Assembly: GCF_036588685.1 (NCBI RefSeq)
Contig: NC_086381.1
Location: 50,220,001 to 50,284,000, forward strand
Reading direction: 5' to 3'
From: Mytilus trossulus
Taxonomy: Eukaryota
Length of the DNA: 64,000 bases
This document shows, piece by piece, positions 11,767 through 61,743 of the stretch. Every line of letters begins with the position of its first letter. The first letter of the stretch is position 1. Both the position numbers and the translations under genes were made by a program. The notes beneath the pieces were generated by a model. That model was not told the origin of the DNA. It ran no database searches and was given only the letters and a program-made list of their open reading frames with translations.

Positions 11767-12127
11767 ACAGCGCTTAGCTTGGGTGACGACTTGTTTAGAA
11801 AGGTGCCATCTAAGTATTGTCAAAGCGATTATAACAATTACGGAGCAATAAAAACACTAATTAATCTTGTTAATTACATTAAAACTTGATATTTGGCAAT
11901 GGCTTCGGCAATCATGGTTGCTCAAATTGGTAAATTGAGAAACAAATAGGTTTTCATTGCCAATTATCAATTTGTATCTTTAAACAGTAGAAGCTTAGAT
12001 TGTTGTGATAAGTAATTTGTTAACGCGATGAGTGCTCTTAACATCAGGTATATATACTGTCCATGACACTGTTCGCTCATTCTCAAGTTCTCGATCAACA
12101 ATTCACATTTGACAACAATCCCTCAAC
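11767..12127 (+). promoter_or_regulatory. Proximal promoter/5' UTR of homeobox paralogue 2 with TATA box (~12049-12056)
   Basis: Aligns with 2720-3079 and has the same TATA context (caggtatatatactg). Confidence 0.7.
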
Positions 12128-35430: not shown

Positions 35431-38400
35431 ATGTCTACAGCACAGATGCAGAGAACACAGGAGAAGACCAGTACAGTAAGAATTTAATTTCCATAGACCA
35501 GGGTTTTTATATACACCATTATAGCAAGAGTAACTTCCCTTTTGTCACCATATTGATGTACTGATCACTAGATTAGAAAAAAATTTTTTTTTCTGAAAGT
35601 TTCATTTTTAAGCCGTACTGTATTCATCACTTACACCAACATCTAGTTTAGGATTTTTAATCAGACTTGTTTGTTCTGCATGTTTCATAATCCATCATAC
35701 AGACCAAGGGAAAGAATTCAAGCACAAATGATATCATATCCACCCTTAGCTCTATACAAGTGCAGTAGATATAAGATGAGGTTTGAGTGACAATGAGACC
35801 ATGCTAAGTCACAATTTTTTAAAAGTAAACCATTATAGGTCAATGTACAGCCTTTAAAACAGAGCCTTGGCCCACACCGAACATAAAGGGCCCCAAAAAT
35901 GACTAGTGTAAAACCATAAATTGAATCAGGAAAACCAAGGGTATGATCAGTATAAAAAAAGTAAGACAAGAAACATTTATGATGAATATTAACAAAGGAC
36001 AACCACTGAACATCATGATTTTATGATGCGTTTAGGTTTCACTTTTGTCTTGAAAATTTCTATTAAGAATTGCTCTAATGACTTGTGATATCGTCATTTT
36101 ATAATTTGTTACATGAAAGGTTAACTATAAAATTATTCCTCCTTGAAGAAGTAAATATTCACTGCATGCAGTGCATGGTGTGCTAAAAATTGTAGTGTTT
36201 TTTGATGTGTTGCTTATAAACTCCTTTCTAATCAATTATATGAATGTATATCAACAAAATCATTGTCATTCCAACAGCATTTTAACCAGTGATTATGATA
36301 GAAATCATGTCAACCACAAATATTTACCAGAAGACAATATCTGTTCTAATAAATTGATCCTTGGTAGAAATTATAAATGTATAATAAGACAATTATCAAC
36401 ATGACTTCAAGATCTATGCACCAAGAAAAAGTGACCTGACCATGTATTTTATATTTATAAATAGTGGTCTGCCATTTTTCCAAATGAAACTGTGACAGAA
36501 CAACAGTCAACTTTATTTGTGAAGAAGCTTGTTGCTGTAGCTGTGTCCAATATTGCCTATTTACGAGCAATCTTCCCAGAGCATTCATTTGGTGATAGGT
36601 GTTTAGAAGGTTAGTTGTTAGTAAGTACACAAGATGTGTGACTGTTTCCTAGATTTCATTATGGGGAATATTCAATGTAAAATGATATGAAAATAAGTAG
36701 ATGTGGTTTGATTGCCTATGAGAGGAGCCTTTTTTTTGGGAACTGAATAATTATTCTTTTAAGAAACTTAAAAAAACACCCCAAAAAATGAAATTGAATT
36801 TTTGTTTTATATACTTAGGACAACATTTTTTGTTTCAAAACTTCTAAGGCCACATTAAAAAAAATTTTGGTCTGCCCAAACCCTACCCAAAGGTTGAGAC
36901 AGTGGGTAGGTAGACCGTAGGTAGGCATTTTCTTTTTTTAGCTCACCTGGCCCAAAGGGCCAAGTGAGCTTTTCTCATCACTTGGCGTCCGGCGTCGTCG
37001 TCCGTCGTCGTCCTGCGTTAACTTTTACAAAAATCTTCTCCTCTGAAACTACTGGGCCAAATTTAACCAAACTTGGCCACAATCATCATTGGGGTATCTT
37101 GTTTAAAAATTGTGTCCGGTGACCCCGCCAACTAACCAAGATGGCCGCCATGGCTATAAATAGAACATAGGGGTAAAATGCAGTTTTTGGCTTATAACTC
37201 AAAAACCAAAGCATTTAGGGCAAATCTGACATGGTGGTAAAATTGTTAATCAGGTTATGATCTAACTGCCCTGAAATTTTCAGATGAATCTGACATTCCG
37301 TTGTTAGGTTGCTGCCCCTGAATTGGTAATTTTAAGGAAATTTTGTTGTTTTTGGTTATTATCTTGAATATTATTTCAGATAGAGATAAACTGTAAAAAA
37401 GCAATAATGTTCAGCAAAGTAAGATCTACAAATAAGTCAACATGACCAAAATGATCAGTTGACCACTTTAGGAGTTATTGCCCTTTATAGTCAATTTTTA
37501 ACCATTTTTCGTAAATCTTAGTAATCTTTTAGAAAAATCTTCTCCTCTGAAACTGCTGGGCCAAATTATTTGAAACTTGGCCACAATCATCATTGGGGTA
37601 TCTAGTTTAAAAATTGTGTCCGGTGACCCCGCCAACTAACCAAGATGACCGCCATGGCTATAAATAGAACATAGGGGTAAAATGCAGTTTTTGGCTTATA
37701 ACTCAAAAACCAAAGCATTTAGAGCAAATCTGACATGGGTAAAATTGTTAATCAGGTGAAGATCTATCTGCCCTGAAATTTTCAGATGAATTGGACAACC
37801 TGTTTTTGGGTTGCGGCCCCTGAATTGGTAATTTTAAGGAAATTTTGCTGTTTTTGGTTATTATCTTGAATATTATTATAGATATAGGTAAACTGTAAAC
37901 AGCAATAATGTTCAGCAAGGTCAGATTTACAAATAAGTCAACATGACCAAAATGGTCAGTTGACCTCTTTAGGAGTAATTGCCCTTTAAAGTCAATTTTT
38001 AACCATTTTTCGTAAATTTTATATATCTTTTACTAAAATCTTCTTCTCTGAAACTGCTGTGCCAAATTGATCCAAACTTGGCCACAATCATCTTTGGGGT
38101 TTCTTGTTTAAAAAATGTGTCCGGTGACCTGGCCATCAAACCAAGATGGACGCCACGGCTAAAAATAGAACATAGGGGTAAAATGCTGTTTTTGGCTTAT
38201 AACTCAAAAACCAAATAATTTAGAGAAAATCTGACATGAAGTAAAATTGTTAATCAGGTCAAGATCTATCTGCCCTGAAATTTTCAGATGAATTGGACAA
38301 CCTGTTTTTGGGTTGCGGCTTCCTGAATTGGTAATTTTAAGGAAATTTTGCTGTTTTATATTGAATATTATTATAGATATAGGTAAACTGTAAACAGCAA

Positions 38401-41400
38401 TAATGTTCAGCAAAGTAAGATCTACAAATAAGTCAACATGAACGAAATGGTCAATTGACCCCTGTAGGAGTTATTGACCTTTGTATTCAATTTTCAATCT
38501 GCTTCCTTTGTTTAATATTCACATAGACCAAGGTGAGCGACACAGGCTCTTTAGAGCCTCTAGTTTTATTCAAAAAAAGAAATTGAAGTATCAGATGTTT
38601 ATTAGTCTTCATGCCTATTTGATTAAAAAAAACTTCTTCAAACCAGGACAATAAAAGAATTTGAGTAGGCAGCTTTTTTCTGGGTAGGTAGCGTTTGGGC
38701 AAACAAACCTATTATTTATTATAGCCTAATAGCTGATTATAGTAAACCATGTTTTCTGCTATAATTAGACCTGAACTTGAAGATACTCAGAGATGATAGT
38801 TCATGCCCAGGAGCTTGTCAAGTTATCAAATGGGTGAAAGGCTGTTTTGATGCCATTGAAAAGAAATATGTAAGTTGCTTACTTGAAACAGTCTTAAATT
38901 TGTTTTTGGACTTTTTTTAAAACAGTGTGTTTAAAATTTATATGACATGAATACATATGAACTATATGCATAAAATATTTGCCTGGTAAATCCAGAAAAG
39001 CACTTCAGATGCACTAAGTCTGTGAGGTGGTATGTTTAATTTCATTTTATTGTGCTTATGTTTATTATTATATAAGAGATATTTTTTTTAGTTTTTTTCA
39101 TCAGATGCATTTGTTTTATAATACTGTGATTGATTTGTTATACACTCTTGTCTTTTTCTTCATTTAGAGATTTTACAGAGAATTCAGATAATTATCTTTA
39201 CATTTAAGTATTTTAATATATATATATTCAGAATATATTCTAGATAGAATAAATTTAAGTAATTTTTTTATTTTATTTTTCAGCTGAGAATGCTGATTAT
39301 AGGGGTAAGTAGATTTGGTTTTGTAAAAAAAATATAACAATTGGAGGACTTGAGGCTTTCCTGATGGACTCTTTCTAGCTATTATCAGAAAGCATACGAC
39401 AGACTACAAGAACAATAAACACAATTTATCAAATAGTTATGTTTCCATAGTTTTCAACTTGAATAAGTTCAACTTTTAAATTACACCCTGATAAGAATTT
39501 GCAAATTTTAGTTTTAAATACTTTACAAATCTAGAAAAAAACATTTACAAGACTTTTGAATTGGATGACTATGGATAGTTTGCTTGACAGTGACCGTCAA
39601 TTTATCAAATTAACTTGAATGAAAAATACAGTAAAACTTCTTTTTTTAATTCATGAGTTCTATAAAGTTTGTCATTAAAACCAACATAAGAATATGATAA
39701 TTATAGAAAAGCCATTAGTATATATTAATATATTGAAGGTTATTTCTGTAACCACCATATTTATTACAGATTTAGGTGAATTTTTTTTTTATCCATTATT
39801 TTGTTGCCATTTTTGTACATGCAATATTGAAAATTAAAGCAATTCAGATTTAGGGCTAGAACATGCAGTTTTATGTATTCTTATATAACATTTTTGTACA
39901 TTTTAGATCTATGTTGACGCTGAAGATCCTGATGTAAGTACAACAAAATTTCACATTTACCATGATCGATTGAATTAGTTCATCTTGGCAGGACATTCAA
40001 TGCTGCATCATGACGAGAAGACAATACTGAATACAGAATTTAAAGTCTAAGTCAAAGAGAAGCAGAACAAAATCATTGGAAATGTTAATAAGAATGAAAA
40101 AAATTAAAAATAAAAAAAGGCAATATTATATTAATTAAAACTGAGCAACTCAGAACCAATCCAAAACCTTGGATGATCTAAGGTGCCATTGAAAGGAAGT
40201 ATATCCTTGCAATTGTGGCAACCATTATGATGAGTACAAATTGGATATTAAGCAGTCTGCACCAAATATAAAAAAAAGATTTGTTCTTTGTCAACTGATT
40301 TAACCCAGATGCTAAATGTTGTAAATAATGTGAATTTAAATCACTTCTCTTTTGTTTTATGCATGCACAAATTGTCAAATTATATATAATTTTTCTTTTG
40401 CATTTACATGAACAAAATTTTGGAAAATAACGCACATATGCGACAACAACTAATCTTCAGTATCCAGAAGTTTTGTTTGTATAACTGAAGATATTTTTTT
40501 ATTTAGTTGCCTTTATTTGTTAAAAGAATGATGTTATTGTACTTTGTTATGTTTATAGTTGTCAGAGAAATGTTAATTTTGTCATTTTATTTACTGTTTA
40601 TTTTCAGACTGTAATCGAGTCGTACACATTTAAGTTTTCCTACACCAATGAAGGGGGAGTCGACATATACAGGTGGTTATACTTTAAACTAAATAAAAAT
40701 TGAATTCAAAAACCATGTTTAGTTGTGCTTTTGCTACTAAAAAATCAATGAAGGATAAAAAAAAAACCTTAATTCAAATAGTTTGGGGGTGGGGGTCAAA
40801 ATTTCTGAAAGTTTTGTTGAATTGACATGGATTTTATATATATCCTTATTGGTCAATCAATTTTTCCCAAATTTAGTTAATAGGGGGGTAGGGGATCAGT
40901 AAGTTTTTTATCCTTCATTTAACTTTTGATGTCATTCCTAAACCATTGCACAATTGAATAATGCATTTAAAATTTTGAGTTATTTCCCTTTGGCAAGTTA
41001 ATTTTAGAACTACTATAAAAAAGTTTCTGACCATAATTAAAGTCTTTTGATTGATTGTAAGAAAGTCTATTTGAGTTATTATTTCCAGCCTTTATTTAGT
41101 TTAAACATATTTATTTATAGTGGATTAGTTTAAACATATTTATTTATAATGGATTGGGAAAGAAGTTTTGCAACTTATATTAATCCCTTTCCACTTTGCG
41201 GGTGTGAGTGCTGCCTTGTAGCTTGCTCTTTTTTAAAATCTACAAGGGTGTGCAAGAGATATGGATCTCTCTTAACAGGGGTCAGCCATTTGTCGTCTCC
41301 TTCCTAGTACTATCATTGCTTCCTCAAGACCAGACTCGCAAATGGTATCTCTCTTTACTGTACCCCTATTTTTGTATTAATATTCACAGGACAGGAAACT

Positions 41401-44400
41401 CATCAAGGCACATTGTTTTTAAATTACAAGCATTACCATCTTTGAACATGTGACCTTTGTACGATTAAAATCAAAAGATCGAACTCAATGTCGTAACCAA
41501 AAAACATGTCAATCACAATGAAATAAAAACAGACAGCAAGAATTTTCATAACATATTTAAAAAATTATATTATAAAATGTAAGAAATAAAAAAAGGAAAA
41601 GTAAAACCTCATTACTTAAGACATACAACCATGAGGAGACATGTAAAATGTGATAACATGACAGCTTAAAGTAGTAAAAAAGCAAAACATTTTTTGAACT
41701 GTTTTTGAAAATTAGTTGATTGGGGTTTATGTTCTGTTTTTGAAAATGGAGGTTCCAACCCCTTCGAACATGAAAAGTTCACATAATTTGTAAGAAAAAA
41801 AATATTGAAAAAATTAGGAGGCATTCCAACCATTGAAACAACCCCCTGAATATGCCATTGTAAAGATATCTTTAATTTTATCCTTTATTTACTCCTCTTG
41901 AATTTCAAATAATAAAAACAGTCATATATAACCTATCAAATTTTTTAACACTATCTAAAAAGTTATCTTCACTTGAACATTTTTGATTATGAAAGTTTTG
42001 CCATTTCAGGAATGACAAGAAAATATCCAGTGCATACTCAGCATCAGAGACAAAGAAAGCAACCATCAGACTTTTGAGGACAATTGTAGTGTTGACACAA
42101 ACATTAAAGTCATTACCTGATGATGTCATGATGACTATGAAGCTTCTCTACTTCGATGATCGTAAGATCCATGTTAACCATTATATTAGTTTGTCAAATT
42201 TTATGCTTGATATTTGAATATATTTGAAATTGGGTATAATAAGACAATAAAACAATTGTCCAAGATAAGACCAATGAATGCATTTTAGAATGAAAATTAT
42301 ACATATTTACAGGCCACATATGAGAGGCATGTTTGTTTTCAGGCCAAATATGTGGTAAGTATTCAGGTTAAATTAAAAAATTGATAATGTTTAGTGGGTT
42401 GCCAAAGGTGAAGGACAGAAAATGAAGGTATGCAATAGTCTACTTAAATGTAAAGACCCCTCACAGAGTTGTTACAAACTTTGATTGTCACATTTTCAGG
42501 GACCATGAATAAGTATCCCTAAAGTGGTTGTTTTATTGCATATAACAAGGAATTATTGGAATCCAAATTTTCTAATGTTTGTTATGAAATAAAAATTAAA
42601 TATTTATTAAAATATTTAGCAAGATATTATATTTTCAGTTACACCTGGTGATTATGAACCTCCAGGTTTCAAGGCTGCACAAACAGATAGCTTTCAGTTT
42701 GAAGAAGAACCTATGAATATAAAAGTTGGAGATGTCACAACTGTAAGCAACATCATAAAATCATGTGCTATATTTTAAGACGTAGAAATTTTTGAGACTT
42801 TGCATGATCTTTGTTGACTGAGTTATGGACCCTGGATTGATTACAGATCAGTGATAATTTAACTATTGGCTTTACATTTTTTAAAACTTTCAATAACTGT
42901 GTATGATAAATTCTTGTTGTACCTTTAGGCCTTGTGTAGATAGTAATTTTTGTCTTTTAGAAAAAGAAGATAAATAACCAGCAGTTTCTACTCAAAATCT
43001 GACTCAAAATGATTTTTTTGGGAAGGTGAACAGCTATAAATGCACATGGCTTACTTAGGAAAAAGAAATGTTGTTTTATTATTTTCCAATCATTGAACAC
43101 TGTTGTAGAAAGTTTCTTTTTTATATGTCTCAATGATTTGTTTTCTGTAAATGCATGCAAATTTATTATTACAGCCATTTCACACGTAAGTGACAGTTGT
43201 TCTGTTCATGTTCTTGTTTTTTTCATACATAAGTTATTAAGACCTTTATGTTTTCATCAGACGATGGTGAAAGTTTTTTTTTTAATTACAGTTTTCTTTT
43301 TAGAAAGTTCAGAGTTTAAACTTGTTGGTTTAGATAGAGCTTGTTATAAAACATATTAGATATAAGTGGTCTGTTTACATTAAGAGCTATTCTAGAAAAA
43401 AATATATAGGGTTTGTTTAGCCTTTAGGTTATGGGATGTGAATATGAAATTTGGATGAGTGGCATGATTGCCAATGAAACAACTATTTACCTGAGACCAA
43501 ATGATGTAGATGTTACAAACTATTACAGAACATCCATTAATAATTTGCAAAACCATACAAAGTATGTTTTATTTTTTGTTTTGATGGTTTGAGTAATGGT
43601 AAGACTGGAACTTTAAGTGAAAGTTAAATGGATTAAATTTTAGATTTATATATATGATAGCTTCTTAAAACTATTTTTTTAACTTGAAAGGTCAAGATAT
43701 TGATTTAGTTGTGTTTTTTGATTTTTTTGAGAGATTTTTTATATGAAATTGTTTAAGATTGTTAACATGTCAGCCAAACTTATAAAACTTGTATTGATAT
43801 GATTGTAATTTATATTTTCAGTATTAAAATGAGAATCAAGACTGACAAATCACAGTTTGAGATGAAGGATGAAGATGTTGATGGAAACAAAGAAGAAACA
43901 ACAGAACCAGAAATCACCACTATCAATGTACAGGATGACATTATTGATGATGAAACACAGGTATACTTTGTAAACATTCAAAATTGTCACAGAGTAATTT
44001 TTTTATAAGAATTATGTGGTCTATCACTTTTGTTGATTGTAAACAAGTCTGTATTTTGATAGTTGTTTCATCAGATTTTCAACAATTATATTTTTTTCTT
44101 CAGAAAAACATGTGTAATCAGAATATTTGTGCATGATATGAAAATTTTATACAAGTGATGTTTAAACTTTTTGTGAATTCCAATTATTCTAGTTGTGATA
44201 TTCAAATGCTTAATCTTAGCCATAGGTAAAGTTTTCCTTTATTATCTTTTAAGACCATTACAGAGAAAGAAAACCTTTAAATAACCAAAATGATCAATAG
44301 GACAAGATTTACAATTTTTTTCAACTGCACAGCTGAGTTAAAATGTAGCGCTTGGATATTAAAAGATACCATTTGGTTTAGAATCTGCAACAATATAAAC

Positions 44401-47400
44401 CAATCTGCCTATGTTTTATCAAATTCAAATTAACCCTTTCAAAACTATACACAGCATATGCCGCAATGAGGTAAGCCTTCCGCCACTGCTATTCAAGGCA
44501 TTTGTTGCGATGACAATGGATTTTTCATCCAGACACTTAACCCTTTCAACGCTATACACGACATATGCCGCGATGACGTACGCCGTTCGCCACTGCTATT
44601 CGCGGCATATGCCGCGATGAAAAAGGATTTTTCATTAGGACTCTTAAACCATTCGGTTTTCATTCGGGTTCTCTCTAATTTTTCATCGTTTGAATCTAGG
44701 ATATATGCAAGGTCTCGTTTGCGCTTGAAATCCCGACTATTTTTATAGTAAAATCATGCAGTAGAAGGAAAATAAAAACAAATATTTTGACAAATGCAAA
44801 TGGCGGAAATCGGAAACGAAGCTGTAAATATGGAAAAATTTCAGCATTTCCTTGGCGAAACTAACAACGAGGATTAGTTAAAAGGTTTCTTGTTATCTCA
44901 ATGTGTTTATTACATTAAATTCGTGTGGGAAATATGATTTGATCGATCAATACGAGACGTAGAAAAAGGGGGGAAAACGGAGGTTGACTGAAATTTTTTA
45001 GCACGGAGCTATTTATTTGTGCCACGATTAAATAAAACGTTATGTATGGTACAATACGCTACTAAATCGGGCAATTGGTGTCTTCTTTACAATATGGCAG
45101 ATAAAACAACAAAATAAATGAAGACTAAAAGTAGTTTTTATTCAAAATTCAACACAAATGTAATAAATTACACCTTTTACCTGTTAATTACCTGAAAACG
45201 CAGGTAACCTGATAAAAATTTCAGTAAAATAATTGCCTATCATTACAGTTCATGCTCTCCTGAGCATTTTTCATGCAATAACTTTCTCTGTATCTCATAT
45301 AATAAAAAAGATACAGCAGTCTGAAAAGGAAAATACTGTTCTAATGAATGAACTAAAAAAAAATGCAGCAGCAGCAGCCATTTTTCTATTTTTTTGTGTA
45401 GCGTTGAAAGGGTTAAACCATTCGGTTTTCACTGTGTCCTTTCTAATTTTTCTAATGAAGTGAGGATATACAAAGTCCTGTTTTTATGGTAAAATCATGC
45501 AGTAGAAGGAAAATAAAAAATAAAAATATGGTTTGACAAATGCAAATGGCAGAAATTAAAAACAACACTGTAAATAAGGAAATATTTCAGCATTTCAATG
45601 ACGAAACTTAAAAACAAGGATAAGTTTAAAGGTTGCCTGTTATCTGAATGTCTTTATTTCATTCAATGAAGTGGGAAATATGATTTAAATGATCCTTACG
45701 AGATGTAGAAAAGGGGGAAACTGAGGTTGACTGAAAATTTTGAGGACGGAGCCACTTATTTGCACCACAATTACATTATACTTTGTGTATGGTGCAATAT
45801 GCTGCGGAATCAAGCAACTTGTGTCTTCTTTTTTATATGGCAGATAAAACAACAAAACAAATGAAGATTAAAGTCTCTTTTATACAAAATTCAACACAAA
45901 TACAATAATTTACACCTTGTACCTGTTAATTACCTGAAAATGCAGGTATCCCAATACAATTTTAACTAAAATAATTGCTTATCATTACAGTGAATGCTCT
46001 CCTGAGCATTTTTCATGCACTAACTTTGACTGTATTTCTTGTAACAAAAAAGATACAGCAGTCTGAAAAGGAATATACTGTTTTGATAAATGAACACAAA
46101 AGAAATGCAGCAGCAGCAGCCAATTTTTTAGAAAATTTTTGTGAAGCGTTGGAAGGGTTAAATTAGTAGATTGACAGACATGCTTATTTTTTGCTGTTAA
46201 TTTGTTTTCAACAGCAACCAGACGAAGAGGTTTACCAGTTTAAAGATGATCTGATAGAAATGGAGAAACCACAAAGACAAACAGAGAATGGTAAATCACT
46301 TGAGGCAGTTGTACCATCAGAAAGTCCTGAAATACCAGGTATCTATTTTTGTTGAACTTCATCTATAAAAGATTGTATGTACTTACCAATAGTTTAGTGC
46401 TGTATTTTGTAGCCCATTTAAGGGAGTATACAACACTTTTATTTCGTATTTATGCCCAACTACAATTATAGTAGAGTTCATTATTTTTTTCTGATTTTGG
46501 TTTTGATTCCTTATCAGGTTAAATTTATTGGTCAAGGTTGTTTATTTCATAGTATACATGAAATAAATTATCTAAATTTAATTCTAAATTATGGTTATGA
46601 ACAAATCTCGAACATGTGATAGTGTTAAACCTATATATTTACAGGTTAAACTTTTTTGTTAAGGTAGATTAATTACCATGCTGTTGTCGTCAGATTTACT
46701 TCAAACTCAGTATACATCGATCTTCAACCTACTAAAATAAAATTTCAAATTAATGTTCCCTTATTTCACTGTTCTCTGAACAAAGAAGACGAAAAGTGAA
46801 AAAGGGGAAGGGGGACGGCATTGTGTCCTGTGGATACAAATCCTCATCGTATTTGTTCTTCATCTCGAAATAGATCTGTTTATGATTCATGATTCATCTA
46901 TATTTACAAAATGTTGACTGATGACAATAGTCTAATTAATCAAAGGTGTGAATATATCTCTAACTGTGCAAACAAAATTATTTTTTTTTAGGTTCTGATG
47001 AAATGGCTGTTGATACCACTGGATCTCAGAGAAGTCAAGAATCAGAAATTCCTGATTTAGGGGTTAGATGTCCTTGTGGTGTGAATGAGGTAAATTATTT
47101 GACAACAATTATATCTCTTATTGATATCCTCTTGAGATATTTGTTTACGATGATGAGATAAGTAATAAATATATCACAGTTTGTGCAAAAAGAAATAACA
47201 CAAAATACAGTAAAATATGAATGTTATGATTGCAATGGAAAGAAGAAAATTAGTACTGTGGATTCATTATTATTCGTTGGATACCAATTTTCATGGATTT
47301 CGTGGGAACAGTTAAACCTCAAAATTAAATGTTCAACGAATGACAAATTTTTAAAAGGCTGTATGTAGATTTCAGCAAAACCACGAAATCAAAGATCCAC

Positions 47401-50400
47401 GAACATGTAAGTTTTCCTCAATCCACGAAAATTGGTACCCAAGAAAATAGAAAATAAATGAATCCATTATTATTTTTAATAGTACATAAGAGAATAGGTC
47501 ACTGGTGAATTGGCACATTTATAAAGAGTTGCCCAAAATGAAAGTGAAAAATATGTAGAAAATGTATTGATTATATAGAAGATGCGAAACATATTCCTTG
47601 TTTTAAAAAGAAAATCAACTGCTTCAATAAATGAATTTTTAAAGGTACAAGTCAAATTGGAATAGCTTTAAACGTTTTTGATATATAAAAAAAAGAAGAT
47701 GTGGTATGATTGCCAATGTGATAACTCGCCACAAGAGAACAAATGGCACAGAAATTTAAAACAACTATAGGTCACTTCAACTTTCAACAATGAACAAGAC
47801 TCATACTTCATAGTCAGCTATAAAAGGCCCCAGAATCTAGATGTTTATTTGCTGAAAACAGTGTTCAGTACGAACAGGAGGAAATTGATCGTTTAAGTGT
47901 ATCTATTTGTTAATTTATACCGTAGGAATTTGTAGAGGGCTATGATAGAGAGGGGATAAAACCTTCTTTATCAGAACTTTGGGATTGACCCTTTCAGGAT
48001 CTGGGAATTCTTTATTTTTGAATTTTGGGATGTTTGGATATAAATTTATTTAAGTTTGAAAATCAGGATTTCGTGTTTTTAAATCTGGGATTTTGGGATC
48101 AGGACCCCTCCTACAACCCCATATATACTAGGTATTAGTATAAGGTACCAAATAATGGAACTGCTGGGCATTGGCTATTTAGCCTGAGTTTAGCTAGCAA
48201 CATATATCTTTACTTATATAGGATGATGGATTAATGTTTCTATGTGCTGTGTGTTAAATATTGGCTATTTAGCCTGAGTTTTTACTAACAACATATATCT
48301 TTACTTATATAGGATGATGGATTAATGATTCTATGTGCTGTGTGTAAATATTGGCTATTTAGCCTGAGTTTTTACTAACAACATATACCTTTCTTTGTAT
48401 AGGATGATGGATTAATGATTCTATGTGCTGTGTGTAAATATTGGCAGCATGGTATCTGTTTCTTGATCAAAGATGAAGATGAGGCTCCTCAAGCTCATTT
48501 CTGTGATGTGTGTTCTGAGGTTTGTAGCATTTTTGTTTTCTTAAATTTCACTCAGAAACAAAGATTTGAAAATAAAAATGGCAGTTACATCCACTATCCA
48601 AATACATGAAACGTAATTGTTTTCAACTTATTGCAAACTTTCTAGCCTCCGCCAGCATCCTTTTTGATTTATTTCGGAAGATTGACAATATTGTTTCAAA
48701 TAACACAAGAAGTTTGTATTATTAAGATAACTACTAATTTAGGATAATAGTAATAATCCTCATAAGAAATTAGATGCTGCATGTTGGAGAAAATAAAACA
48801 CTGCTTAATTCTGATGAAAACAGTGATTGAAACCAAAGACAAAATGAATTATAGAGTTTAAGAACAAAATGTACAAACTTGTATAATACTAAGTGAATTG
48901 TTGATTAAAGTTTATGTATTATACATGCATAATATTAATTAAAGACATATATGTATATTTAATTTTGATTATTTGCCTTTTTTGTTATAAAGATTGACAG
49001 TCCAGACAAACAGCCAACTGATCCTTATTTGTGCGGTTTATCATCTATAGCTGTTCAGGTTTGATACTTAAGAAATCTAAATATATGATACCAAAATTCA
49101 TATGTTTTTGACATGCATGTAGAATAGGCTTCACACTAAAGAGTGCCAATCAACACAAAAAATCAAGACGTTTGACATTTCAATATACTGTCTTCAAAAA
49201 TATCAATTGTTAGTCTAAAAAAAATATTACTGAGTAAAGACCCCATTGGCCATATTAAAGATCTGCCAAGATGCAAAATCTCCATAAAACTGTAGGATTA
49301 AAGAGGGTTCCTAATTGCTATCTGTGCAAAATTTCCAAATGTCACTAATCTCATTAAAAATTGCTGAGGACATGGTATACAGAAAACAATAGTAACAAAT
49401 TAAAGTCACCCTTTGACACAACAATGGGAAAACATGAAGTTCCATAGAAATATTTAAACATGTACTGAATTGTCTTTAGAATAAAAAAATTAAGTAGCAA
49501 AGTAATAATTTAATGGAATTTTTTTTTATCCCATTTTAAGAATAACATGATTTCATGTATAACACATGTTATTTAGGAGGTGCTATGACACAGATTCACG
49601 ACTTTGTGTTGATCTTTCAAACTGTTGTTTACTTTGTCTATGCAATCAGATAAACATTTGTCAAGGATAAATTTTTGAATTCTGGACCTTCTGGTTTTTT
49701 TAAAACTTGATCCATGGGTAACACAAGGTGCAGAGAAAAAGTACCATTTACCCTTTCACCCATTGCTGCCCAGACGGAAGCTACTCTGAGACGATTGCTT
49801 CCCTGGCTACTATTACTCAAGTGGGAGATCTTCAAAATAAATGTCAATAAAAACTTGTTTGTAGTTATTTGTGTATTTATTTCATTCACTAACACCATGT
49901 TCTCAGTTTTATTTTAATGTTTTGATAATTTTTTCTTCAGAAAATATTCAAATTTTCAAATTTTCTGCATTATCTAGGTGAAATTCTCAAAATTCTGCTC
50001 TTTGACCCCAAATCATAATTTTTGTTAACCAAAAACGGCAAATTTTGAAAAATTTTATGAGGCTGTATCTAATTCCACACACTGAACGATGTCCATTCCA
50101 AGTGTTTTGTACATAAAACAACATTTATGTCAAAAAAGTTTACTAGTTTGGCTTCAATTCTTCCATATTGTTTCAAATAAAGAGTTCCCTCATTTAAAAT
50201 TCTCGTAAATTCATAAATTTCTTCTGATTTTGACGCGGTTTTCAACAAACAGAAGCACCATGTTTACACTTATCCAGGTATTCATCAAAGAAAGATAACT
50301 CATGTTTGCACTGTTTTGAGAGGCAAATATAAAAGAGGTATTCGGATCCCGGTTTAACAGGACTCATCGTCAGCTGTTTGAAGCTTTGAAGCGTGAATCC

Positions 50401-53400
50401 CGGTAAACCGGGACTCATAGGCAAAAGGGTTAAGTTCAGTACCAGAATCAAATTTCATTGTCAATTATATCTCTAATGTGGCTAAAATTAACAAAATAAA
50501 CATAGCTAGGTTCTTAGAGCGCACATTATTTAAGTAAAAACAAGCTCACAAATACTTAACCTGATTGGTAAAAGCAAGGTCACAAATACTAAACCTGATG
50601 ATGTAAAAAATACTGCCTTTCATTATTTGGCTTTACTTTAAAATAAGATTCCAAATAGAAAGTTGCCATTATACCGTACATGAAATATTTAGACAGTTCA
50701 AAACTGATGTCATAGGTTTGGAATTTGCTGCTCAGTCTCAGCTATATGTATGATTGGCTGTTGATATTTAGAAATGAAATAGGACCTATTTCAGTTATTT
50801 CTGAGATAATTATCTTCCTTTAATTATTTATAGGCCACATGCTTATGGAGAAGAACTTTAACGGCTGTACCAGAACTAAGCAGAGTTTTAGCACCGAACT
50901 TGGCCAAAAGACTTGGTGTAGAAGTCAGTGTAGCTCAAGGTCTCATGAACAGACTTGAAAAAGAAGGTTTCTTAAAGAGCAGTGGGAAAAATAAGAAGTA
51001 TGTTATGTTTGGTGACTTTTATTTGTTTATTTATAGTTAATGGTACCTTGTATTACTATTCTACACAGTAAAGAAGATTTTAGATTTGATTAAATTCACA
51101 AGTGTAAAAAAGTAGTTGGGGAGGGGGGTTCATTATAATATATGCATGGTACATGGAAAGACAGAATTTTACACTTTTGATTGATTGCTTGAAAAACAAG
51201 GAAAAAAAATCACATGCCAAAATAAATCTGAAGCATGTTGATGTATCAAATATCTTTGTTAAAACATTTTTCGAAGCAAAACATTAAACTTAAAAGACAC
51301 TTGATTATTTTTCTTTATGATAGGTTATTGCACATTTTAAGCTCACAAGGGTCTGTCTCAGTAGTCCTCTGTTGTGGTTAACTTTTACAAAAGTCTTCTC
51401 CTCTGAAACTAATTTTAACCAGACTGGGCGACAATCATTATTAGGGTTTCTAGTTTAAAAAATGTGTCTGATGGCCAACCAAGATGTATGACATGTCAAT
51501 TATTTTGAAAACTTATAAATAAAAAAATGTGAAGGTAGAAAAAATGGTATGAATGTTGACATATTCATCAAATTCTCTAAAAAGACAAATTTTACCATTT
51601 TTTTACCATGTTTTGTCTATTATCTTGAAAAATAGATACAAACTTTCAAAAGCAAAAATGATCAGCAAGGTGACAATCTCTTCAAATAAGTTTACATGGT
51701 AGAAATTATGTGATGACCCTCTTGGAGTTATTGCCCTTTAATGTACTAATTTTTGCACTTTTTACTTTATATCTGAACAAATGTAAATGCTTGAATTAAC
51801 AAAAGGGATCAGAAGGATAGGACTTACAAATATAAGTCAAAATAGTTGAAAATATCTGATATTCCTTTATACCAGCTTTGGTCATTTATAACAGTTATTA
51901 CATTGTTGTGCAATTTTGACTAATATATTTATTTTTTGGTTTCTAGAAGATATGTCCTTTCAGAAGCTTATACATTTAACAAATCATTGATTAGGTTTTG
52001 TACAAACTATCAAAATCATTATTTATTTCTTACGTTTGTATTGTGCAGATTTTATATGATTTCATGTTTATTAAGTTTCAACGGGGAAAAGTGTTTACTA
52101 GTGAATTTTAAACTTTTTAGGCTGGGAAAAACTGTTGACAAGGAGAAAGTGAAAATAGATGGTTTCAAGAAATATCTTACAAGAAAGCCAACAGAGAAAC
52201 CTACAATTGACACATCAATGAATGAAGAGGTAAGTGTGTACTATCAAACCTGTCTATAAAAGATGATACAGAGAAGGTGCAACAGTGCACCTTATAGACA
52301 GGTGCTAGATAAAAATGACACGAGAAATTTTGTGATAAGAAAAATGAATTAAAGAAGATACATAATTTCCAACACAAAATATTAGAAATACAAACCATGT
52401 AGGTTAATACTAGGTATCTAGGAAATATATCTGTAAATATTTCAACTGTTTTCCTTTAAAACCTACAAATCAATATCTTGTTTTGAGATGTATTTATGAT
52501 ACATTTGATTAAAAAATGTTTTTTATGACTTTAATTTAAGTTCTTTTAAAGTGAAATTAAAAACTCTATATATGTTACAGAAAATACAAATATATACACA
52601 ATATATGTAAGTTGTCGGAAAATATAAAATTTATTTGTATGAGCTTTAGAAATAGGACCAAAAGGAGGCTCTCTTGTTTTGTAGTGAGTACAAATAAATT
52701 TTATTCATTTATAAAATGTTACTATGAAGAAACTCTATACTTTATTACAATTAGATTTAATGCTTTTGATTATTAATGAATAATTACTATTTTCAGACTG
52801 AAGATGATGGAGAATTTAAAAAGCCTCTGCAGAAGAAAGACATAAACAAATCTGTATGTTTTGTTTTAGTTATTAAATGCTGCTCTTTGTAAAAAATCAG
52901 CCAATTTGAATAAAAATCAAAACATGATCAGAAAAAAAATTGATAACCTATTAAATCATGTTTTTGTAGTTTCCATTATCATGAGTAAATCATGGTGTTT
53001 TTCATTTCTGTATGTGTGGTATTTCAAAATACTATAAACCAACTAAATTTGTTAAGCAATTTATTTTGTTATTTTTGCAAGTAGAAAAATATTGCAAATA
53101 TAAATCATCCTGATTATGTAAAATTTGAATTTTCCTTACTCAGCTACATCAAGTTAATTTGAGAATAGCAAATTAAATTTGAATCGCAACGAAATAGGCT
53201 AAAAAGGGCTAAAAGCGAAATAAAGTATCTACGATATAAATTGGTTTTAAAATGTTAATTTCCAGTGCATTTGAACAAAATTATATCTTCTTTAAGCAGA
53301 ATAGGAAAAGGAAATGAGACTTATTTTCAAGCATTACTACATATTAGGAACTGAAATTAATGTTAACTGGAGTGTGTTTTTGTTTGTCATGTTTTCATCA

Positions 53401-56400
53401 CAACCTGATACAGGCAAACTGGCACTTTAGTGTGGTTTGAAAGGTAGTTTATATAAAGAAAATGTTCTGATCTGAAGACATTTTGTCTGGTTGAATTATT
53501 TTTTTAGTTGTAATAAAATGTTTCATTTAGTCGTGTGCAGAAGACTTGTTTGATAGTACACGGCACATATCTTAATCAACTCCCATAAGTTTTCAAATCA
53601 CACTCTTGAAACTTTACAGAGAGGATGCACCTTAGTGAATAAAAGATGAAAAAGCTGAAAAGTTACCCAAATTTTTTAGACATTTTTTTCAACTCTCACA
53701 AATATATCAATCCAGATCCCTGTCAGAAACTTCACAGAGTGTTCCAATATTTACAAATATTTTAAGTTATCCCCATTTACCTAGGTATTGGAATGTAGTC
53801 ATTTTCAGCAAAATTTACAAATAACAGTGCCAATTTTTTGTATAATTATGTCCTCTCACAGTTTTCAAGCCAGGTCCTTGCAATTAATATTTCATTTGGA
53901 ATATCAATCTGAAAAATGAGATATTCATTTCTTGGCTGTTTCATCCTTTTAAGTAAAAACTCAGCTATTAATGATCGTTCATAATTATGTCCTTAGAGAG
54001 ACTACAGTCTTGTTATGCTGTATGTTCATAAGGGAGGTGTAATTGTGTGAATATACTCAGGATTAAATGCATGGTAAGATTTTTTTTTAGACCCAAAGCT
54101 ATAATATAGATTTTTTTCATGTTATTTATGATTCTTACAAAAAACAAACACATATATTTAACTAGTTAGTGCCTCCCACAAAATAGATATCATACTCAAG
54201 ATATTTTCCTTGTTAATTATGTATGCTTTTCATAATGCATTATAAAATATTTTGTTTCTTCATTTGTAATTTATTTTCTTTTAAAAAATGACTGAGCATT
54301 GTAGATAGAATAATGGATATAGATTTTGGATTACTATTTCACAAATTTCAGAATAAGCAACTGATAAGACAAGCGTTGGAAAACCAAAATTACTTTTAGA
54401 TATTAAAAGCAAGAAGTAACAAAATATCAAAGTTAATGGCTATATTATAACTTTAATACGCTGTAAAAATAGATCCATAGTACTGGTATTTAAATTTAAT
54501 GAATCTGTTCCTTATGGTTGAATTAAAGTAAGTTGAAAATGAATGCATACGTAAACAGATCTTTTTGATCCAGTCACAGTTTCATTGCTGTTATTAATAG
54601 GTACTTCTAGTTTATGAAGATGAAATACTATAATTAATGTTGAATTGAAAAAAGTTTTTTTTTAACTTTCAGATAGAACAGCTTTCTGCAATGACAGAAG
54701 ATATTGAATTATCTAGACCTAAGAAAAAAGGAAGAAGGGGTAAAAAACAAAAGGAAAACAAGGAGAATGTAGAGGTACTTCATTATGTTCATAGTTTTGT
54801 TTGCTTTTTATACATCAGTATATGGGACGTATTATGGTATAACTCTTTCCGTCTGTTCATCTATTGATCTGTCAACATGTGGGATAATAACTCAAAATCC
54901 CTTGAACCTTCAGTTTGCATGAAACTTTGATGAATCATTTATATCTATTGATGTAAGCATTCTATCAATTATGTTAGTTTTTGATTTTATGTTACCAAGG
55001 TGTGGGATTTTATTCATATTCAATCTATGGTGCATATAAAGTCTGCTGGTAGGAGCACCTTTGAATACCAAGAAAGATAACTCAAATTTTATCCATTTAC
55101 TTATTACTTAAAAACTAATTCTAAAATGTCTTCATCCTTCTAACTTTAGAGCATTTATGTTAAGGTATGTTCAAAGATTAGAAGGTCTTTGGAAAAGGGT
55201 GTGGGGGATGTCTTCATTTTGTATTCTTTATTTTTTTTGGACCATTTTTCTCTATTCTGAGTTATTTTGCCAATAAAAAATAAAAGAAAACAAGGCGTAT
55301 CAGCTCATCATCAGTATACCAATAATATAAAGTGATTCAGAAACAGTGCACACAGAAATAATGCAAAAATTATAACCCTAAAAGTTCTTGTCATGTAATG
55401 AAACAAATTATTCAAACTGTTGATTCAAAAGGTCATTGTTCCAGCTTCTTACTATACATGTTTTACCAAGGAGCAGCAAATACCAATTTTCAAGGTTTGA
55501 AATTAATGGTCCCAAATTTCTGTTGGCAAACCCAAACCTCTGACACAGTCTGCAGCTTTTAGACATTATATAAATATAACACTCATTTATTTATTGAACA
55601 GTTTTACTTGTGTTAAAATGAGGGATTAAGGCTATACATTTAATTAAAAATTATTTACTTAGTAGTGTTCCATTTAAATATACATGGTAGCAGGGAAATT
55701 ACTTTAAAAAGGAGTAATTTTAGTATTTTGCTTACCTTTCCACTATGAAATTGAGAATGGAAATGGGGAAATATGTCAAAGAGACAACAACCGGACCAAA
55801 GAGCAGATACTTGTTACCTATCTATAGACGAGATTTCAAATTGTCTTCCCTGGGTGTCATGTATGTTTTTATTGGAACAGCCTTAATGTCAAATTTACAA
55901 ATTTCTGGATGTTTCATTACTTTGGATTATTTTTTGGGCAAATTTAATCTATTATTTTATTTTGTCTTCAGGTTGAATCAGCTGTTGTACATCCCTGCCA
56001 AGAAAATGACACAAAGAAAAGCAGAAAAAGGGCTATATCAAAAGTTGATGAGGTAATTTGAACAAAAAAGGATAAGGTTATTTGTAAATGTATATGTCAC
56101 AAACTAAATAGGGTTATCGCTTTAATTAATGAGAAAAAGAGGGAGAAGATATTAAGGGCTATTCCATTAAAAAGTTGGAGGGTAGGAATTGACTTTCAAA
56201 ATATCCCTACAACCAGGAACCAATTTTAGATAGTTTTGAATAATGGTATGCATACTGAAAAAAGACCCATTACCAACATTCAATGATTAAACTAACCTCC
56301 CATTTACATTTTAGGGAATAGCCCTAAAAACATATGTAAATGAAAACAAACACTACGGCCAAAACTAAAAAAATGTTGAAAATTGACAAGTCAATAAAAC

Positions 56401-59400: not shown

Positions 59401-61743
59401 CATTTTCTTAATTGTTCAGTTGAAAATATTTAATTAAAATAAAAGTTGTGGGCAGTTGCTTCACTTTTCTTTAAAATTTGCCCTCTAAATTGTAATTTTT
59501 ATGCCCCACCTACGATAGTAGAGGGGCATTATGTTTTCTGGTCTGTGTTTGTTCGTCTGTTTGTCCCGCTTAAGGTTTAAGTTTTTGATGAAGTTAAGAC
59601 CAATAAACTTGAAACTTTGTACACATGTTCCTCGTGATAGGATCTGTCTAATTTTCATGACAAATTAAAGTTTTGACCCCAATTTCACAGTTCACTGAAC
59701 ATAGAAAATGATAGTGTAAAGTTTAGGTTAAAGTTTTGGTTAAGGTTTTTGGTCAAGGTAGTTTTTGATGAAGTTGAAGTCACATCAACTTGAAATTTAG
59801 TACACATGCTCCCTATGATATGATCTTTGTAATTTTAATTTTAAATTAAAGTTTTGACCCCAATTTCAGGGTCCACTGAACATGGAAAATGATAGTGTGA
59901 GTAGGGCATCTGTGTACTATGGACACATTCTTTGTTTTAAATTTGATAAATATACAGCAAAAAATGAGTTTTTTCTACATTCATGAAAATTTTATAAATA
60001 TGAGTTATTTAAAAACCAAATTGCATAAATTTAAAGAACATTTATATAAAACAAAATTTACAAATACTTTTTTTTTGTCGAAAGGAAAAATACATCCACA
60101 AATCCAAATTTTAAGCAAATTTATAAGAATTCATCCTCATTTTACTAAAAAAAAAAGCAAGTGAAGGTATATTTTTATTACATATTTGATTTAATCAGGC
60201 AAACAATAGCCTATATGCAAATTGTCAGCAAAGTTTCAATATGGAAAGAAAACCATATTGTATAAGCCCTTAAGCAAGCCTCAACCAAACGTTATGAACC
60301 ACAATACTTAATACCATAAAACACAGATGAAATTTGAATTTTGGTGGTTTTACCTTCACTGTTCTGGAGTTATTCCCTTTAAAAATGGAAATATTGCTGA
60401 GTTTTTTGTTTCCATTCTCTAACTTTAATGTGCCTCAACCAAATGTTATGAAAGTTACACAGTTCTTATTACCACAAAACTTAGATAAAGTACAAATTTG
60501 GGTAGTTTCTCATGTTCTTTAGTTATGTTGTCCCTTTCTAACATTTTTATACCCCAGCTTTAAAAAAGGGGGGGTATACTGTTTTACCTCTGTCTGTCAA
60601 TCCGTCCGTCAGTCCGTCCTTCAGTTAGTCAGTCCGTCCCATGAATCTTTCGTCACATTTTTCTCAGGAACTATACATCCACCCTTCTGTAATTTGGTAT
60701 CAACATTTATATATGTCAGCCATACCGTGTGATGCGTTTTCAGATTCATCATTCATCGACTTCCTGTTAACCAAACACTTGTATGATTTTACACTTGATA
60801 GCCAAGTTGAAAATTTTCGTCACATTTTTCTCAGTAACTACAATACATGGATTTCTGAAATTTGGTTTCAGGGTTTAATTAAGTCCGCTTTACCGTGTGA
60901 TGCCTTTTCAGATTGATCACTTGACAACTTCCTGTTAACCGAACACTTGTATGATTTTACACATGATAGCCAAGTTGAAAATTTTCGTCACATTTTTCTC
61001 AGAAACTACAATACATGGATTTCTGAAATTTGGTTTCAGGGTTTATTTAGGTCAGCTATACCATGTGATGCGTTTTTAGATTGATCACTTGACAACTTCC
61101 TGTTTACCGAACACTTGTATGATTTTACACATGATAGCCAAGTTGAAAATTTTCGTCACACTTTTCTCAGGAACTACAATACAAGGATTTCTGAAATTTG
61201 GTTTCAGGATTTATATAAGTCACCTATACCGTGTGATGCGTTTTCAGATTGATCACCCGACAACTTCCTGTTTACCGAACACTTGTATGATTTTTCACAT
61301 GATAGCCAAGTTGAAAGTTTTCGTCACATTTTTCTCAGGAACTACAATACAAGGATTTCTGAAATTTGGTTTCAGGGTTTATTTAAGTCCACTTTACAGT
61401 GTGATGCGTTTTCAGATTCATCACTCGACAACTTCCTGTTTACTGAACACTTGCATATTTTTACACTATTAATATTATCCACTTGCGGCGGGGGTATCAT
61501 CAGTGAGCAGTAGCTCACAGTTTCACTTGTATGATATGCAAGAAGGGGCATCACTATCTGCGTCCCATGGACAAATTTCCTATTTATTTAGATAGATGAT
61601 ATATTTAATTGAAAAAAAATACTTCTTTTCAGACTGAGTTTGATTTAGCTGATAGCCAGATGGATAGTCAAGATTTCATGGAGGACAAGAACAGTTCAAA
61701 AAAGAAGAAAGCAAGCATTGTGTCCAAGGCAATAATGGTTTAA
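35431..61743 (+). CDS. HORMAD1: Meiotic HORMA-domain protein (HORMAD/Hop1 family) with PHD finger, winged-helix and closure-motif-like tail; 20 coding exons, about 612 aa
   Basis: Exons 35431-35475, 36465-36609, 38769-38869, 39284-39304, 39907-39933, 40608-40672, 42010-42161, 42639-42742, 43175-43185, 43822-43960, 46215-46338, 46992-47089, 48403-48519, 48993-49058, 50834-50997, 52121-52229, 52797-52853, 54673-54774, 55972-56052 and 61633-61743. All GT-AG, in frame (1839 nt). Translation [101 protein letters not shown] matches the HORMAD HORMA domain. The low-complexity 3' exons are less certain. Likely co-orthologous to vertebrate HORMAD1/2. Confidence 0.92.
36845..38730. mobile_element. Short MITE split by a HINE insertion
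   Basis: Left taaggcca..ggtctgcccaaaccctaccc and right gggtaggtagcgtttgggcaaac..tagcctaa are imperfect inverted ends enclosing the 36936-38565 element. Confidence 0.55.
36936..38565 (+). mobile_element. HINE-like element with three ~505-bp internal repeats
   Basis: 5' ttttagctcacctggcccaaagggccaagtgagc followed by a (GTC)n microsatellite. Unit starts aaaatcttct.ctctgaaact at about 37029, 37534 and 38035. 3' ggtgagcgacacaggctctttagagcctctagtt (subterminal IR + hairpin). Decayed relative at about 51340-51800. Confidence 0.85.
44434..46157. mobile_element. piggyBac-like non-autonomous element, outer copy
   Basis: TTAA|CCCTTTCAAAACT ... AGCGTTGGAAGGG|TTAA, interrupted at its internal TTAA by a second copy of the same family. 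Confidence 0.87.
44541..45412. mobile_element. piggyBac-like non-autonomous element, inner intact copy (872 bp)
   Basis: TTAA|CCCTTTCAACGCTATACAC ... TGTGTAGCGTTGAAAGGG|TTAA. Confidence 0.9.
47256..47468. mobile_element. MITE (TA-flanked, Tc1/mariner-type)
   Basis: ta|ctgtggattcatt ... aatgaatccat; internal tggatttcgtgg / ccacgaaa inverted motifs. Confidence 0.6.
48170..48447 (+). repeat. ~90-bp tandem repeat of the HORMAD PHD-exon acceptor and exon start (2 copies + real junction)
   Basis: ag|gatgatggattaatg.ttctatgtgctgtgtgt starting at 48222, 48313 and 48403. Confidence 0.9.
56156..56324. mobile_element. Tourist/PIF-Harbinger-type MITE
   Basis: TAA|GGGCTATTCC ... GGAATAGCCC|TAA. Second copy at 59155-59343. 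Confidence 0.8.
57335..59430 (+). repeat. Diverged ~480-bp direct repeat pair (57335-57815 and 58755-59430)
   Basis: Collinear matches such as agggacat.caactgt, ccttagcagtcca, tatcactg.tcacccctttta and gtgaacata. The second copy carries an extra MITE. Confidence 0.75.
59155..59343. mobile_element. Tourist/PIF-Harbinger-type MITE, copy 2
   Basis: TTA|GGGCTATTTCATTAAAA ... TTTTAATGGAATAGCCC|TGA. Confidence 0.8.
59496..59935 (+). mobile_element. HINE/pearl-like element (family A) with two internal units
   Basis: Reverse complement of 27882-28171, with the core (aacttgaaa.tt.gtacacatg...aaaatgatagtg) present twice. Confidence 0.8.
60544..61530 (+). mobile_element. HINE-like element with ~168-bp internal tandem repeats (about 5 units)
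   Basis: 5' tttttatacccc..gggggtatac followed by a GTCC/GTCA microsatellite. gatagccaagttgaaa recurs every ~168 bp. 3' gcggggtatc plus hairpin gtgagcagtagctcac. Confidence 0.85.

What the first reader, a model, noticed from the sequence alone, without database searches (positions are those of the whole stretch)
46992..50997. Animal HORMAD retaining a PHD + winged-helix chromatin-binding region with an apparently intact methyl-lysine pocket
Seen: RCPCGVNEDDGLMILCAVCKYWQHGICF...HFCDVC (complete C4HC3, split across two exons) followed by a winged-helix-like LAPNLAKRLGVEVSVAQGLMNRLEKEGFL. Known: mammalian HORMAD1/2 lack this region, while budding-yeast Hop1 has a PHD/winged-helix region that binds nucleosomes. 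The pattern RCxC..DDGxMxxC..C..WQH resembles MLL5/Set3-type H3K4me readers, in which the Met and Trp line the cage. Inference: this axis protein may read H3K4me directly, linking promoter or hotspot chromatin to the meiotic axis. The Asp usually following the third Cys is Ala here, which may alter H3R2 sensitivity.
Basis: partly seen in the sequence, partly recalled or inferred. Interest (0 to 1): 0.7.

Follow-up and report, generated by a model that had tools for sequence, protein, structure and literature searches.

The report
Mussel meiotic HORMAD with chromatin-binding module
This is the mussel's gene for a meiotic chromosome-axis protein (HORMAD) whose spliced message includes a zinc-finger plus winged-helix module that likely grips nucleosomes through both DNA and the histone H3 tail; the same module has already been crystallised from a sea star and a blood fluke, so it is an ordinary member of a published kind.

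Summary
The region is exons 12-15 of a 20-exon Mytilus HORMAD gene (612 aa; identical to a RefSeq M. trossulus protein). RNA shows the PHD and winged-helix exons spliced as modelled. All eight zinc ligands, the four pocket positions (V336, D345, M349, W358) and the three DNA-binding basic positions match the crystallised sea-star module.

The idea is already published: Milano 2024 and Rodriguez 2025 describe this PHD-wHTH region in animals, solve it (9MYP, 9MUG) and draw the same MLL5/Set3 comparison. They detected no peptide binding and no strong H3K4me3 preference on nucleosomes, although the Trp mutant bound nucleosomes less. The Asp-to-Ala change is real but common (63 of 75 close homologues have Ala, Gly or Ser); both crystallised proteins are of the acidic type, so the mussel type was not among those tested biochemically.

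Side result: 19 of 81 wider relatives lack the pocket Trp; the four that carry a species name are arthropods. The scan earlier noted a stand-alone form of this module in an arthropod (e1-7709122). Verdict: new member of a known kind, low interest.

The parts
35431..43960 (+). Coding exons 1-10: N-terminus, HORMA domain (Pfam 30-223) and start of the acidic linker; includes micro-exons of 21, 27 and 11 nt
   Evidence: whole model identical to P0090; these junctions were not read directly in RNA here
46215..46338 (+). Exon 11, acidic low-confidence linker (aa 271-312)
46992..47089 (+). Exon 12: end of linker and start of the PHD (V336 = pocket position III, C338, C340)
48170..48445 (+). 90-bp tandem repeat, 3.1 copies, that copies the exon-13 acceptor and exon start; two decoy acceptors (exon starts 48222, 48313) would lead to stop codons
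   Evidence: RNA joints use 48403; bin depth fits the true exon alone
48403..48519 (+). Exon 13: body of the PHD (D345 = IV, M349 = II, A353 = Cys3+1, W358 = I, six zinc ligands)
48993..49058 (+). Exon 14: PHD-to-winged-helix connector
50834..50997 (+). Exon 15: winged-helix helices, R445 (= P. miniata R463)
52121..52229 (+). Exon 16: wing and last helix; K460 (codon split over the junction) and K463 (= P. miniata R477, R480)
52797..56052 (+). Exons 17-19, low-confidence C-terminal tail
61633..61743 (+). Exon 20 with the conserved basic-then-hydrophobic C-terminus, the likely closure motif, and the stop codon
   Evidence: a loose contig end reads the start of this exon; closure function is inferred

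Best explanation
This is a mussel meiotic HORMAD gene whose spliced message encodes HORMA, a PHD plus winged-helix module and a conserved C-terminal tail, and the module likely holds nucleosomes at two points, DNA through the winged helix and the histone H3 tail through the PHD, with likely only a weak preference for methylated K4. Shown here: gene structure, splicing of exons 11-19, conservation of all ligand, pocket and DNA-binding positions. Predicted here: the fold and the docking of an unmodified H3 tail. Inferred from orthologues: DNA binding through R445/K460/K463, a contribution of W358 to nucleosome binding, loading on the meiotic axis through HORMA-closure motif contacts, and a bias of axis protein (and so of DNA breaks) towards nucleosome-rich chromatin. 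Family identity is about 0.98 certain; the confidence below is for the mechanism.
For: Model open for 612 codons and identical at 612 of 612 residues to RefSeq XP_063398182.1. Five junctions around the module carry 205, 140, 205, 181 and 186 raw reads in run X24 and stand in contigs of X1 and X3. P0003, identical to the model over 336-480, matches 9MYP at E 5e-56 and 9MUG at 4e-29; AlphaFold2 block pLDDT 81-97 over 331-480; Foldseek ranks 9MYP first, TM-score 0.85 by target for 9MYP and 9MUG. Among 75 close homologous PHDs: W 75, M 75, D/E 75, V 69; R445 position R in 75. Mean identity PHD 0.69 and wHTH 0.60 against 0.20 in the flanking linkers. In P. miniata, W376A and R480A each reduced nucleosome binding, and unmodified and K4me3-analogue nucleosomes bound about equally (PMC12365614). 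Predicted complex with unmodified mussel H3 1-31: score 0.73, best of 3 controls 0.11, runs agree in at least 68% of contacts, partner pLDDT at least 58, K4 beside M349 and W358; the mark was reached by 51 of 78 solved and 2 of 108 mismatched pairs; like PHD-H3 complexes are solved, so this may be likeness from memory, and peptides are outside the calibration.
Against: No binding was measured for the mussel protein. The published peptide assays on both orthologues detected no binding. The nucleosome test used a methyl-lysine analogue and an unquantified gel shift (a reviewer asked for quantification), so real selectivity could have been missed; published AlphaFold 3 models favoured H3K4me3 in 17 of 17. 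The mussel PHD has no acidic residue at Cys3-1, Cys3+1, Cys3+2 or Cys4+1 (L, A, V, K), unlike both tested proteins, so their results may not carry over. Meiotic expression and axis location were not tested; 1 of the 4 runs laid (X21) holds almost no junction reads, tissue not shown.
Confidence: 0.58

Rival explanations
1. One reading: the PHD is a selective H3K4me2/3 reader that pulls promoter or hotspot chromatin to the meiotic axis.
For: Pocket positions intact and nearly invariant in close homologues; after the two Hop1 structures, the best PDB sequence matches of the PHD exon are Set3, PHF20 and MLL5; AlphaFold 3 preferred H3K4me3 in 17 of 17 PHD-wHTH modules; tails in peptides or analogues may understate selectivity.
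Against: No peptide binding detected and no strong discrimination on nucleosomes for the orthologues. An acidic position IV and only one aromatic residue make a partial cage; a review passage notes that an acidic cage residue shifts preference towards lower methylation. My complex prediction passes with unmethylated H3 and cannot model methylation.
Confidence: 0.28
2. The winged helix does the chromatin binding; the PHD is mainly structural or binds a lysine peptide of a non-histone meiotic protein.
For: Failed histone-peptide assays; 19 of 81 wider relatives have lost the pocket Trp and 14 of these 19 still carry a HORMA domain, so the cage can be given up; the mussel PHD lacks the acidic residue that holds H3R2 in KDM5A PHD1.
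Against: W376A reduced nucleosome but not naked-DNA binding in P. miniata; W, M and D/E are invariant in 75 of 75 close homologues; predicted H3 docking (0.73 against 0.11, caveats as above).
Confidence: 0.13
3. The PHD and winged-helix exons are not part of the HORMAD message, or the repeat at the exon-13 acceptor breaks the gene.
For: Two decoy acceptors upstream of exon 13 lead to stops; one is identical to the true exon start for 43 nt. The runs laid may come from individuals or species without the repeat.
Against: All listed joints into exon 13 use 48403 (74 weaker joints were not shown); implied depth 257 in exon 13 against 248-268 in three neighbours; full-length HORMA+PHD+wHTH proteins from four Mytilus species and three Logan contigs align to the model without gaps.
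Confidence: 0.01

Closest known systems
Holozoan Hop1/HORMAD PHD-wHTH chromatin-binding region (Patiria miniata 9MYP, Schistosoma mansoni 9MUG; Rodriguez et al. 2025, PMC12365614, parts 1-4 of 5 read: all main text, start of the reference list)
   Same: Architecture, zinc-ligand spacing, pocket positions I-IV, basic DNA-binding positions, fold.
   Different: Cys3+1 is Ala here, Glu371 in P. miniata and Asp in S. mansoni; two of three DNA-binding Arg are Lys; no biochemistry on the mussel protein.
[quoted passage not shown] 2024, PMC10907721, section 16 and passages read)
   Same: Central PHD and winged helix between HORMA and closure motif; nucleosome binding.
   Different: Yeast has the HTH-C extension, a degenerate pocket and a non-canonical DNA surface; here the confident model ends near residue 480 and the pocket is intact.
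Set3 / MLL5 / PHF20 / ASH1L PHD fingers
   Same: Closest non-HORMAD PHDs by sequence and fold; Trp, Met or Thr, small hydrophobic and acidic pocket positions.
   Different: They have solved complexes with methylated H3K4 peptides; Set3 has Asp after the third Cys; they are not packed on a winged helix in a HORMAD.
Mammalian HORMAD1
   Same: HORMA domain (E 1e-77 to 8J69).
   Different: The match ends at residue 305; vertebrates lost the module.

Membership tests
Meiotic HORMAD (Hop1/HORMAD1) | N-terminal HORMA domain of the meiotic type | tested here: met
   PF02301 E 8e-63 over 30-223 (on P0003); best PDB match human HORMAD1
Meiotic HORMAD (Hop1/HORMAD1) | C-terminal closure motif that binds the HORMA domain | tested here: inconclusive
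   Last 15 residues conserved (mean identity 0.55 against 0.20 for the tail); binding not tested
Meiotic HORMAD (Hop1/HORMAD1) | Expression in meiotic cells and location on the chromosome axis | not testable with these tools
   Transcribed and spliced, but tissue is not shown
Holozoan PHD-wHTH chromatin-binding region | C4HC3 PHD with two zinc sites | tested here: met
   Eight ligands with the S. mansoni spacing
Holozoan PHD-wHTH chromatin-binding region | Pocket positions I Trp, II Met/Leu, III small hydrophobic, IV Asp | tested here: met
   W358, M349, V336, D345 align to P. miniata W376, M367, V354, D363
Holozoan PHD-wHTH chromatin-binding region | Winged helix following the PHD, with basic DNA-binding residues | tested here: met
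   R445, K460, K463 align to R463, R477, R480; TM-score 0.85 to 9MYP and 9MUG
Holozoan PHD-wHTH chromatin-binding region | Module on the same message as the HORMA domain | tested here: met
   Exons 11-19 joined in RNA; one 1392-nt contig carries 816 nt upstream of exon 11 ending in exon-10 sequence; full-length public proteins
Holozoan PHD-wHTH chromatin-binding region | Measured DNA and nucleosome binding | not testable with these tools
   Only a predicted H3-tail complex
Saccharomycete PHD-wHTH-HTH-C region | HTH-C extension and degenerate pocket | tested here: not met
   Pocket intact; confidence falls after residue 480
H3K4me2/3-selective PHD readers (Set3/MLL5 type) | Methylation-dependent binding of the H3 tail | not testable with these tools
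   Methyl-lysine cannot be modelled here; orthologue data show no strong discrimination
RAG2-type H3R2me2s/K4me3 dual reader | Acidic R2 residue replaced by a tyrosine | tested here: not met
   RAG2 feature from a review passage; here Ala, and Tyr in 0 of 75 and 0 of 81 homologues at Cys3+1; that RAG2's Tyr sits at this same position was not checked

The most novel reading that the evidence does not exclude
The mussel-type module, which lacks the acidic H3R2 anchor of the two tested proteins, is a true H3K4me3 reader that ignores R2 methylation and ties marked chromatin straight to the axis, in a genus reported to carry a PRDM9 (PMC8835667, passages). That would put a hotspot writer and an axis-bound reader in one animal, a direct loop-to-axis link that mouse HORMADs cannot make; arthropods that lost the pocket Trp would be natural knock-outs.
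Probability: 0.12. Interest if true: 0.65.

Novelty: new member of a known kind. Interest (0 to 1): 0.2.

Why it matters
The module itself is published, so the gene adds one more species. What stays open is whether animal HORMAD PHDs read H3K4 methylation in vivo, which bears on how meiotic breaks are aimed in animals outside mice. First, both proteins assayed so far have an acidic residue after the third Cys, while most close homologues (63 of 75) and 51 of 81 wider ones do not. Second, some arthropod HORMADs keep the module but lack the pocket Trp, which gives natural comparisons.

Tried and rejected
A Mytilus-specific report: 'HORMAD' with 'Mytilus' gave 1 paper, a clam microarray study by its listing. 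Six mollusc and sea-star names were found in 0 of 8 searched supplementary files of PMC10907721; file 7 was not searched and even Patiria was not found, so this blank is weak. Follow-up work since 2025: 3 papers listed, no new test of an animal module by their abstracts. Loss of the pocket Trp in arthropods: 6 papers listed; the two HORMAD papers among them have 0 occurrences of 'arthropod' in their main text; figures and appendix alignments could not be seen. PRDM9 in this genome: SSXRD and KRAB family searches found nothing but rang in no control either, so they say nothing; a five-term paper search on PRDM9 in molluscs gave 0. The primary MLL5 and Set3 papers and a PHD review were not held, so the role of the Cys3+1 Asp rests on KDM5A, ASH1L and RAG2 passages. 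The HORMA-exon junctions, rare use of the decoy acceptors and the presence of the repeat in other individuals were not read directly. The run finder listed no indexed holder on record as RNA; evidence comes from the lay. A second HORMAD copy: the PHD exon has 1 match and all 3 HORMA matches lie in this gene, lower bounds only. Rejected: that the Ala is special to this gene; a RAG2-like dual reader (no Tyr); a broken gene.
Full report
Observation. The quoted motifs are at the stated places on the + strand. Reading splice sites by hand gave 20 coding exons from 35431 to 61743, all introns GT-AG, one open frame of 612 codons. The model is identical at 612 of 612 residues to RefSeq XP_063398182.1 of Mytilus trossulus and differs at 8-9 residues from the M. 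edulis and M. galloprovincialis proteins, none within 336-480. The order is HORMA (30-223), acidic linker, PHD (336-382), winged helix (about 400-480), low-confidence tail, conserved C-terminus. It includes a 66-nt connector exon that was not mentioned, and it leaves out exon 16, which holds the wing.

Splicing. Four runs were laid on 46170-56200. Raw RNA run X24 has 205, 140, 205, 181 and 186 reads on the five junctions from exon 11 to exon 16. Contigs of X1 and X3 (RNA by the tool's guess) show the same joints. X21 has almost none. One X1 contig of 1392 nt carries 816 nt before exon 11, and its loose end reads exon-10 sequence; the model has 810 coding nt there. That links the module to the HORMA exons by inference; those junctions were not read one by one. 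A 90-bp repeat of 3.1 copies duplicates the exon-13 acceptor. Both decoys lead to stops, but the listed joints use 48403 (74 weaker joints not shown) and bin depth fits the true exon alone (257 against 248-268). Whether the sequenced animals carry the repeat is unknown.

Anatomy. The eight zinc ligands have the spacing given for S. mansoni Hop1. Against the P. miniata construct, pocket positions I-IV are W358, M349, V336, D345, and the three arginines needed for DNA binding are R445, K460, K463. Of 83 proteins then held, 75 matched a full PHD pattern (8 partial ones dropped): W 75, M 75, D/E 75, V 69. This set came from word searches seeded on the mussel and leans to molluscs. AlphaFold2 on a 61-sequence alignment headed by P0003 gave block pLDDT 81-97 over 331-480, with a weaker HORMA domain and overall pTM 0.40. 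Foldseek ranked 9MYP first and 9MUG fourth (TM-score 0.85 by target), with Set3 and MLL5 PHDs further down.

What is known. Milano et al. 2024 (PMC10907721; section 16 and passages) found PHD-wHTH regions in 36 of 149 HORMADs from fungi and animals, noted the conserved cage, proposed two-point binding, and placed the loss in vertebrates and chromadorean nematodes. Rodriguez et al. 2025 (PMC12365614; parts 1-4 of 5, plus two passages of the review file) solved the sea-star and fluke modules, named Set3, MLL5, PHF20 and ASH1L as nearest PHDs, and measured DNA binding (Kd 16 uM) through the winged helix. They could not detect binding to histone peptides. The sea-star module bound nucleosomes at low micromolar, less so in W376A and R480A, and about equally with and without an H3K4me3 analogue; AlphaFold 3 favoured H3K4me3 in 17 of 17.

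The Ala after the third Cys. RAG2 lacks the acidic residue and tolerates R2 methylation through a Tyr (PMC2794343, passages). In ASH1L, R2 makes non-polar contacts with a Gln and the cage Trp (PMC9399681, passages). In HORMAD PHDs the position is Ala, Gly or Ser in 63 of 75 close homologues and acidic in 12; 54 of 75 have no acid at any of four neighbouring positions. In a full HMMER search with the sea-star module, 84 of the best 150 rows spanned both domains, 81 matched the pattern, and 30 of 81 were acidic. So the change is common and the position is variable, which suggests R2 is not gripped tightly. It does mean that both assayed proteins are of the acidic type and the mussel type was not among them.

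Predicted H3 contact. Residues 333-482 with two zinc ions and unmodified mussel H3 1-31 scored 0.73 against a best control of 0.11; runs agree in at least 68% of contacts, partner pLDDT at least 58; H3 residues 2-7 pair with 345-351, K4 beside M349 and W358. The mark was reached by 51 of 78 solved and 2 of 108 mismatched pairs (on eukaryotes 39 of 65 and 2 of 126). Peptides are outside the calibration and like complexes are solved, so this shows likeness to H3-binding PHDs and says nothing about methylation.

Mechanism. Most likely (0.58) the protein loads on the meiotic axis through HORMA and closure motif (inferred from the family) and the module adds weak two-point nucleosome binding with little K4-methyl preference. 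A selective reader is possible (0.28), as is a structural or non-histone role for the PHD (0.13). A broken or unspliced module is close to excluded (0.01).

Side result. Of the 81 wider relatives, 19 lack the pocket Trp; 14 of these have a HORMA domain; 10 were looked up and the 4 with species names are a sea spider, a spider, a copepod and a crayfish. I did not find this stated in the text I read or in one aimed search, but figures, appendix alignments and one supplementary file were not visible.

Verdict. Real, correctly described, spliced and conserved; a further member of a kind that is published with structures and with the same hypothesis. Interest 0.2.

Noticed in passing
P0106, P0109, P0139, P0149, P0153, P0160, P0164, P0170, P0173, P0180, P0193, P0194, P0197, P0203, P0208, P0210, P0217, P0221, P0230: 19 of 81 PHD+wHTH relatives lack the pocket Trp (Q, K, R, A, S, Y, L or E instead); 14 of the 19 carry HORMA. 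Of 10 looked up, the 4 with a species name are arthropods (Nymphon, Stegodyphus, Neocalanus, Cherax). Rodriguez et al. call this position highly conserved outside budding yeast.
   Followed up: partly
48170-48445: 90-bp tandem triplication that copies the exon-13 acceptor and up to 43 nt of the exon; the decoys lead to stops and have a slightly weaker pyrimidine tract (0.69 against 0.77).
   Followed up: partly
3065-3901 and 12113-12928, + strand: Two very similar single-frame homeobox ORFs about 9 kb apart (Pfam Homeodomain E 1e-18 each), probably a recent tandem duplication.
   Followed up: partly
39284-39304, 39907-39933, 43175-43185: Three micro-exons (21, 27, 11 nt) inside the HORMA domain; the M. 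coruscus annotation P0004 has gaps at two of these places.
   Followed up: no
52797-52853: An M. edulis isoform (P0087) lacks residues 497-515, i.e. this exon; the module is untouched.
   Followed up: no
35180-35209: Possible 30-nt 5' untranslated exon with good splice sites and a three-codon upstream frame; not tested in RNA.
   Followed up: no
28149-28388, - strand: Exon-like frame of an upstream gene on the other strand; it recalls ropporin-1-like proteins (from memory; no Pfam hit at E 0.01).
   Followed up: no
60648-61466 and 62572-64000: Tandem arrays of 168 bp (4.9 copies, last intron) and 166 bp (8.6 copies or more, downstream); intron 10 also holds a duplication of roughly 700 bp near 44650-46160, seen by eye.
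   Followed up: no
P0059, P0083: The Solemya annotation continues past the usual C-terminus into a PF00651 domain, and the Batillaria annotation lacks the second half of the PHD; both are probably gene-model errors.
   Followed up: no
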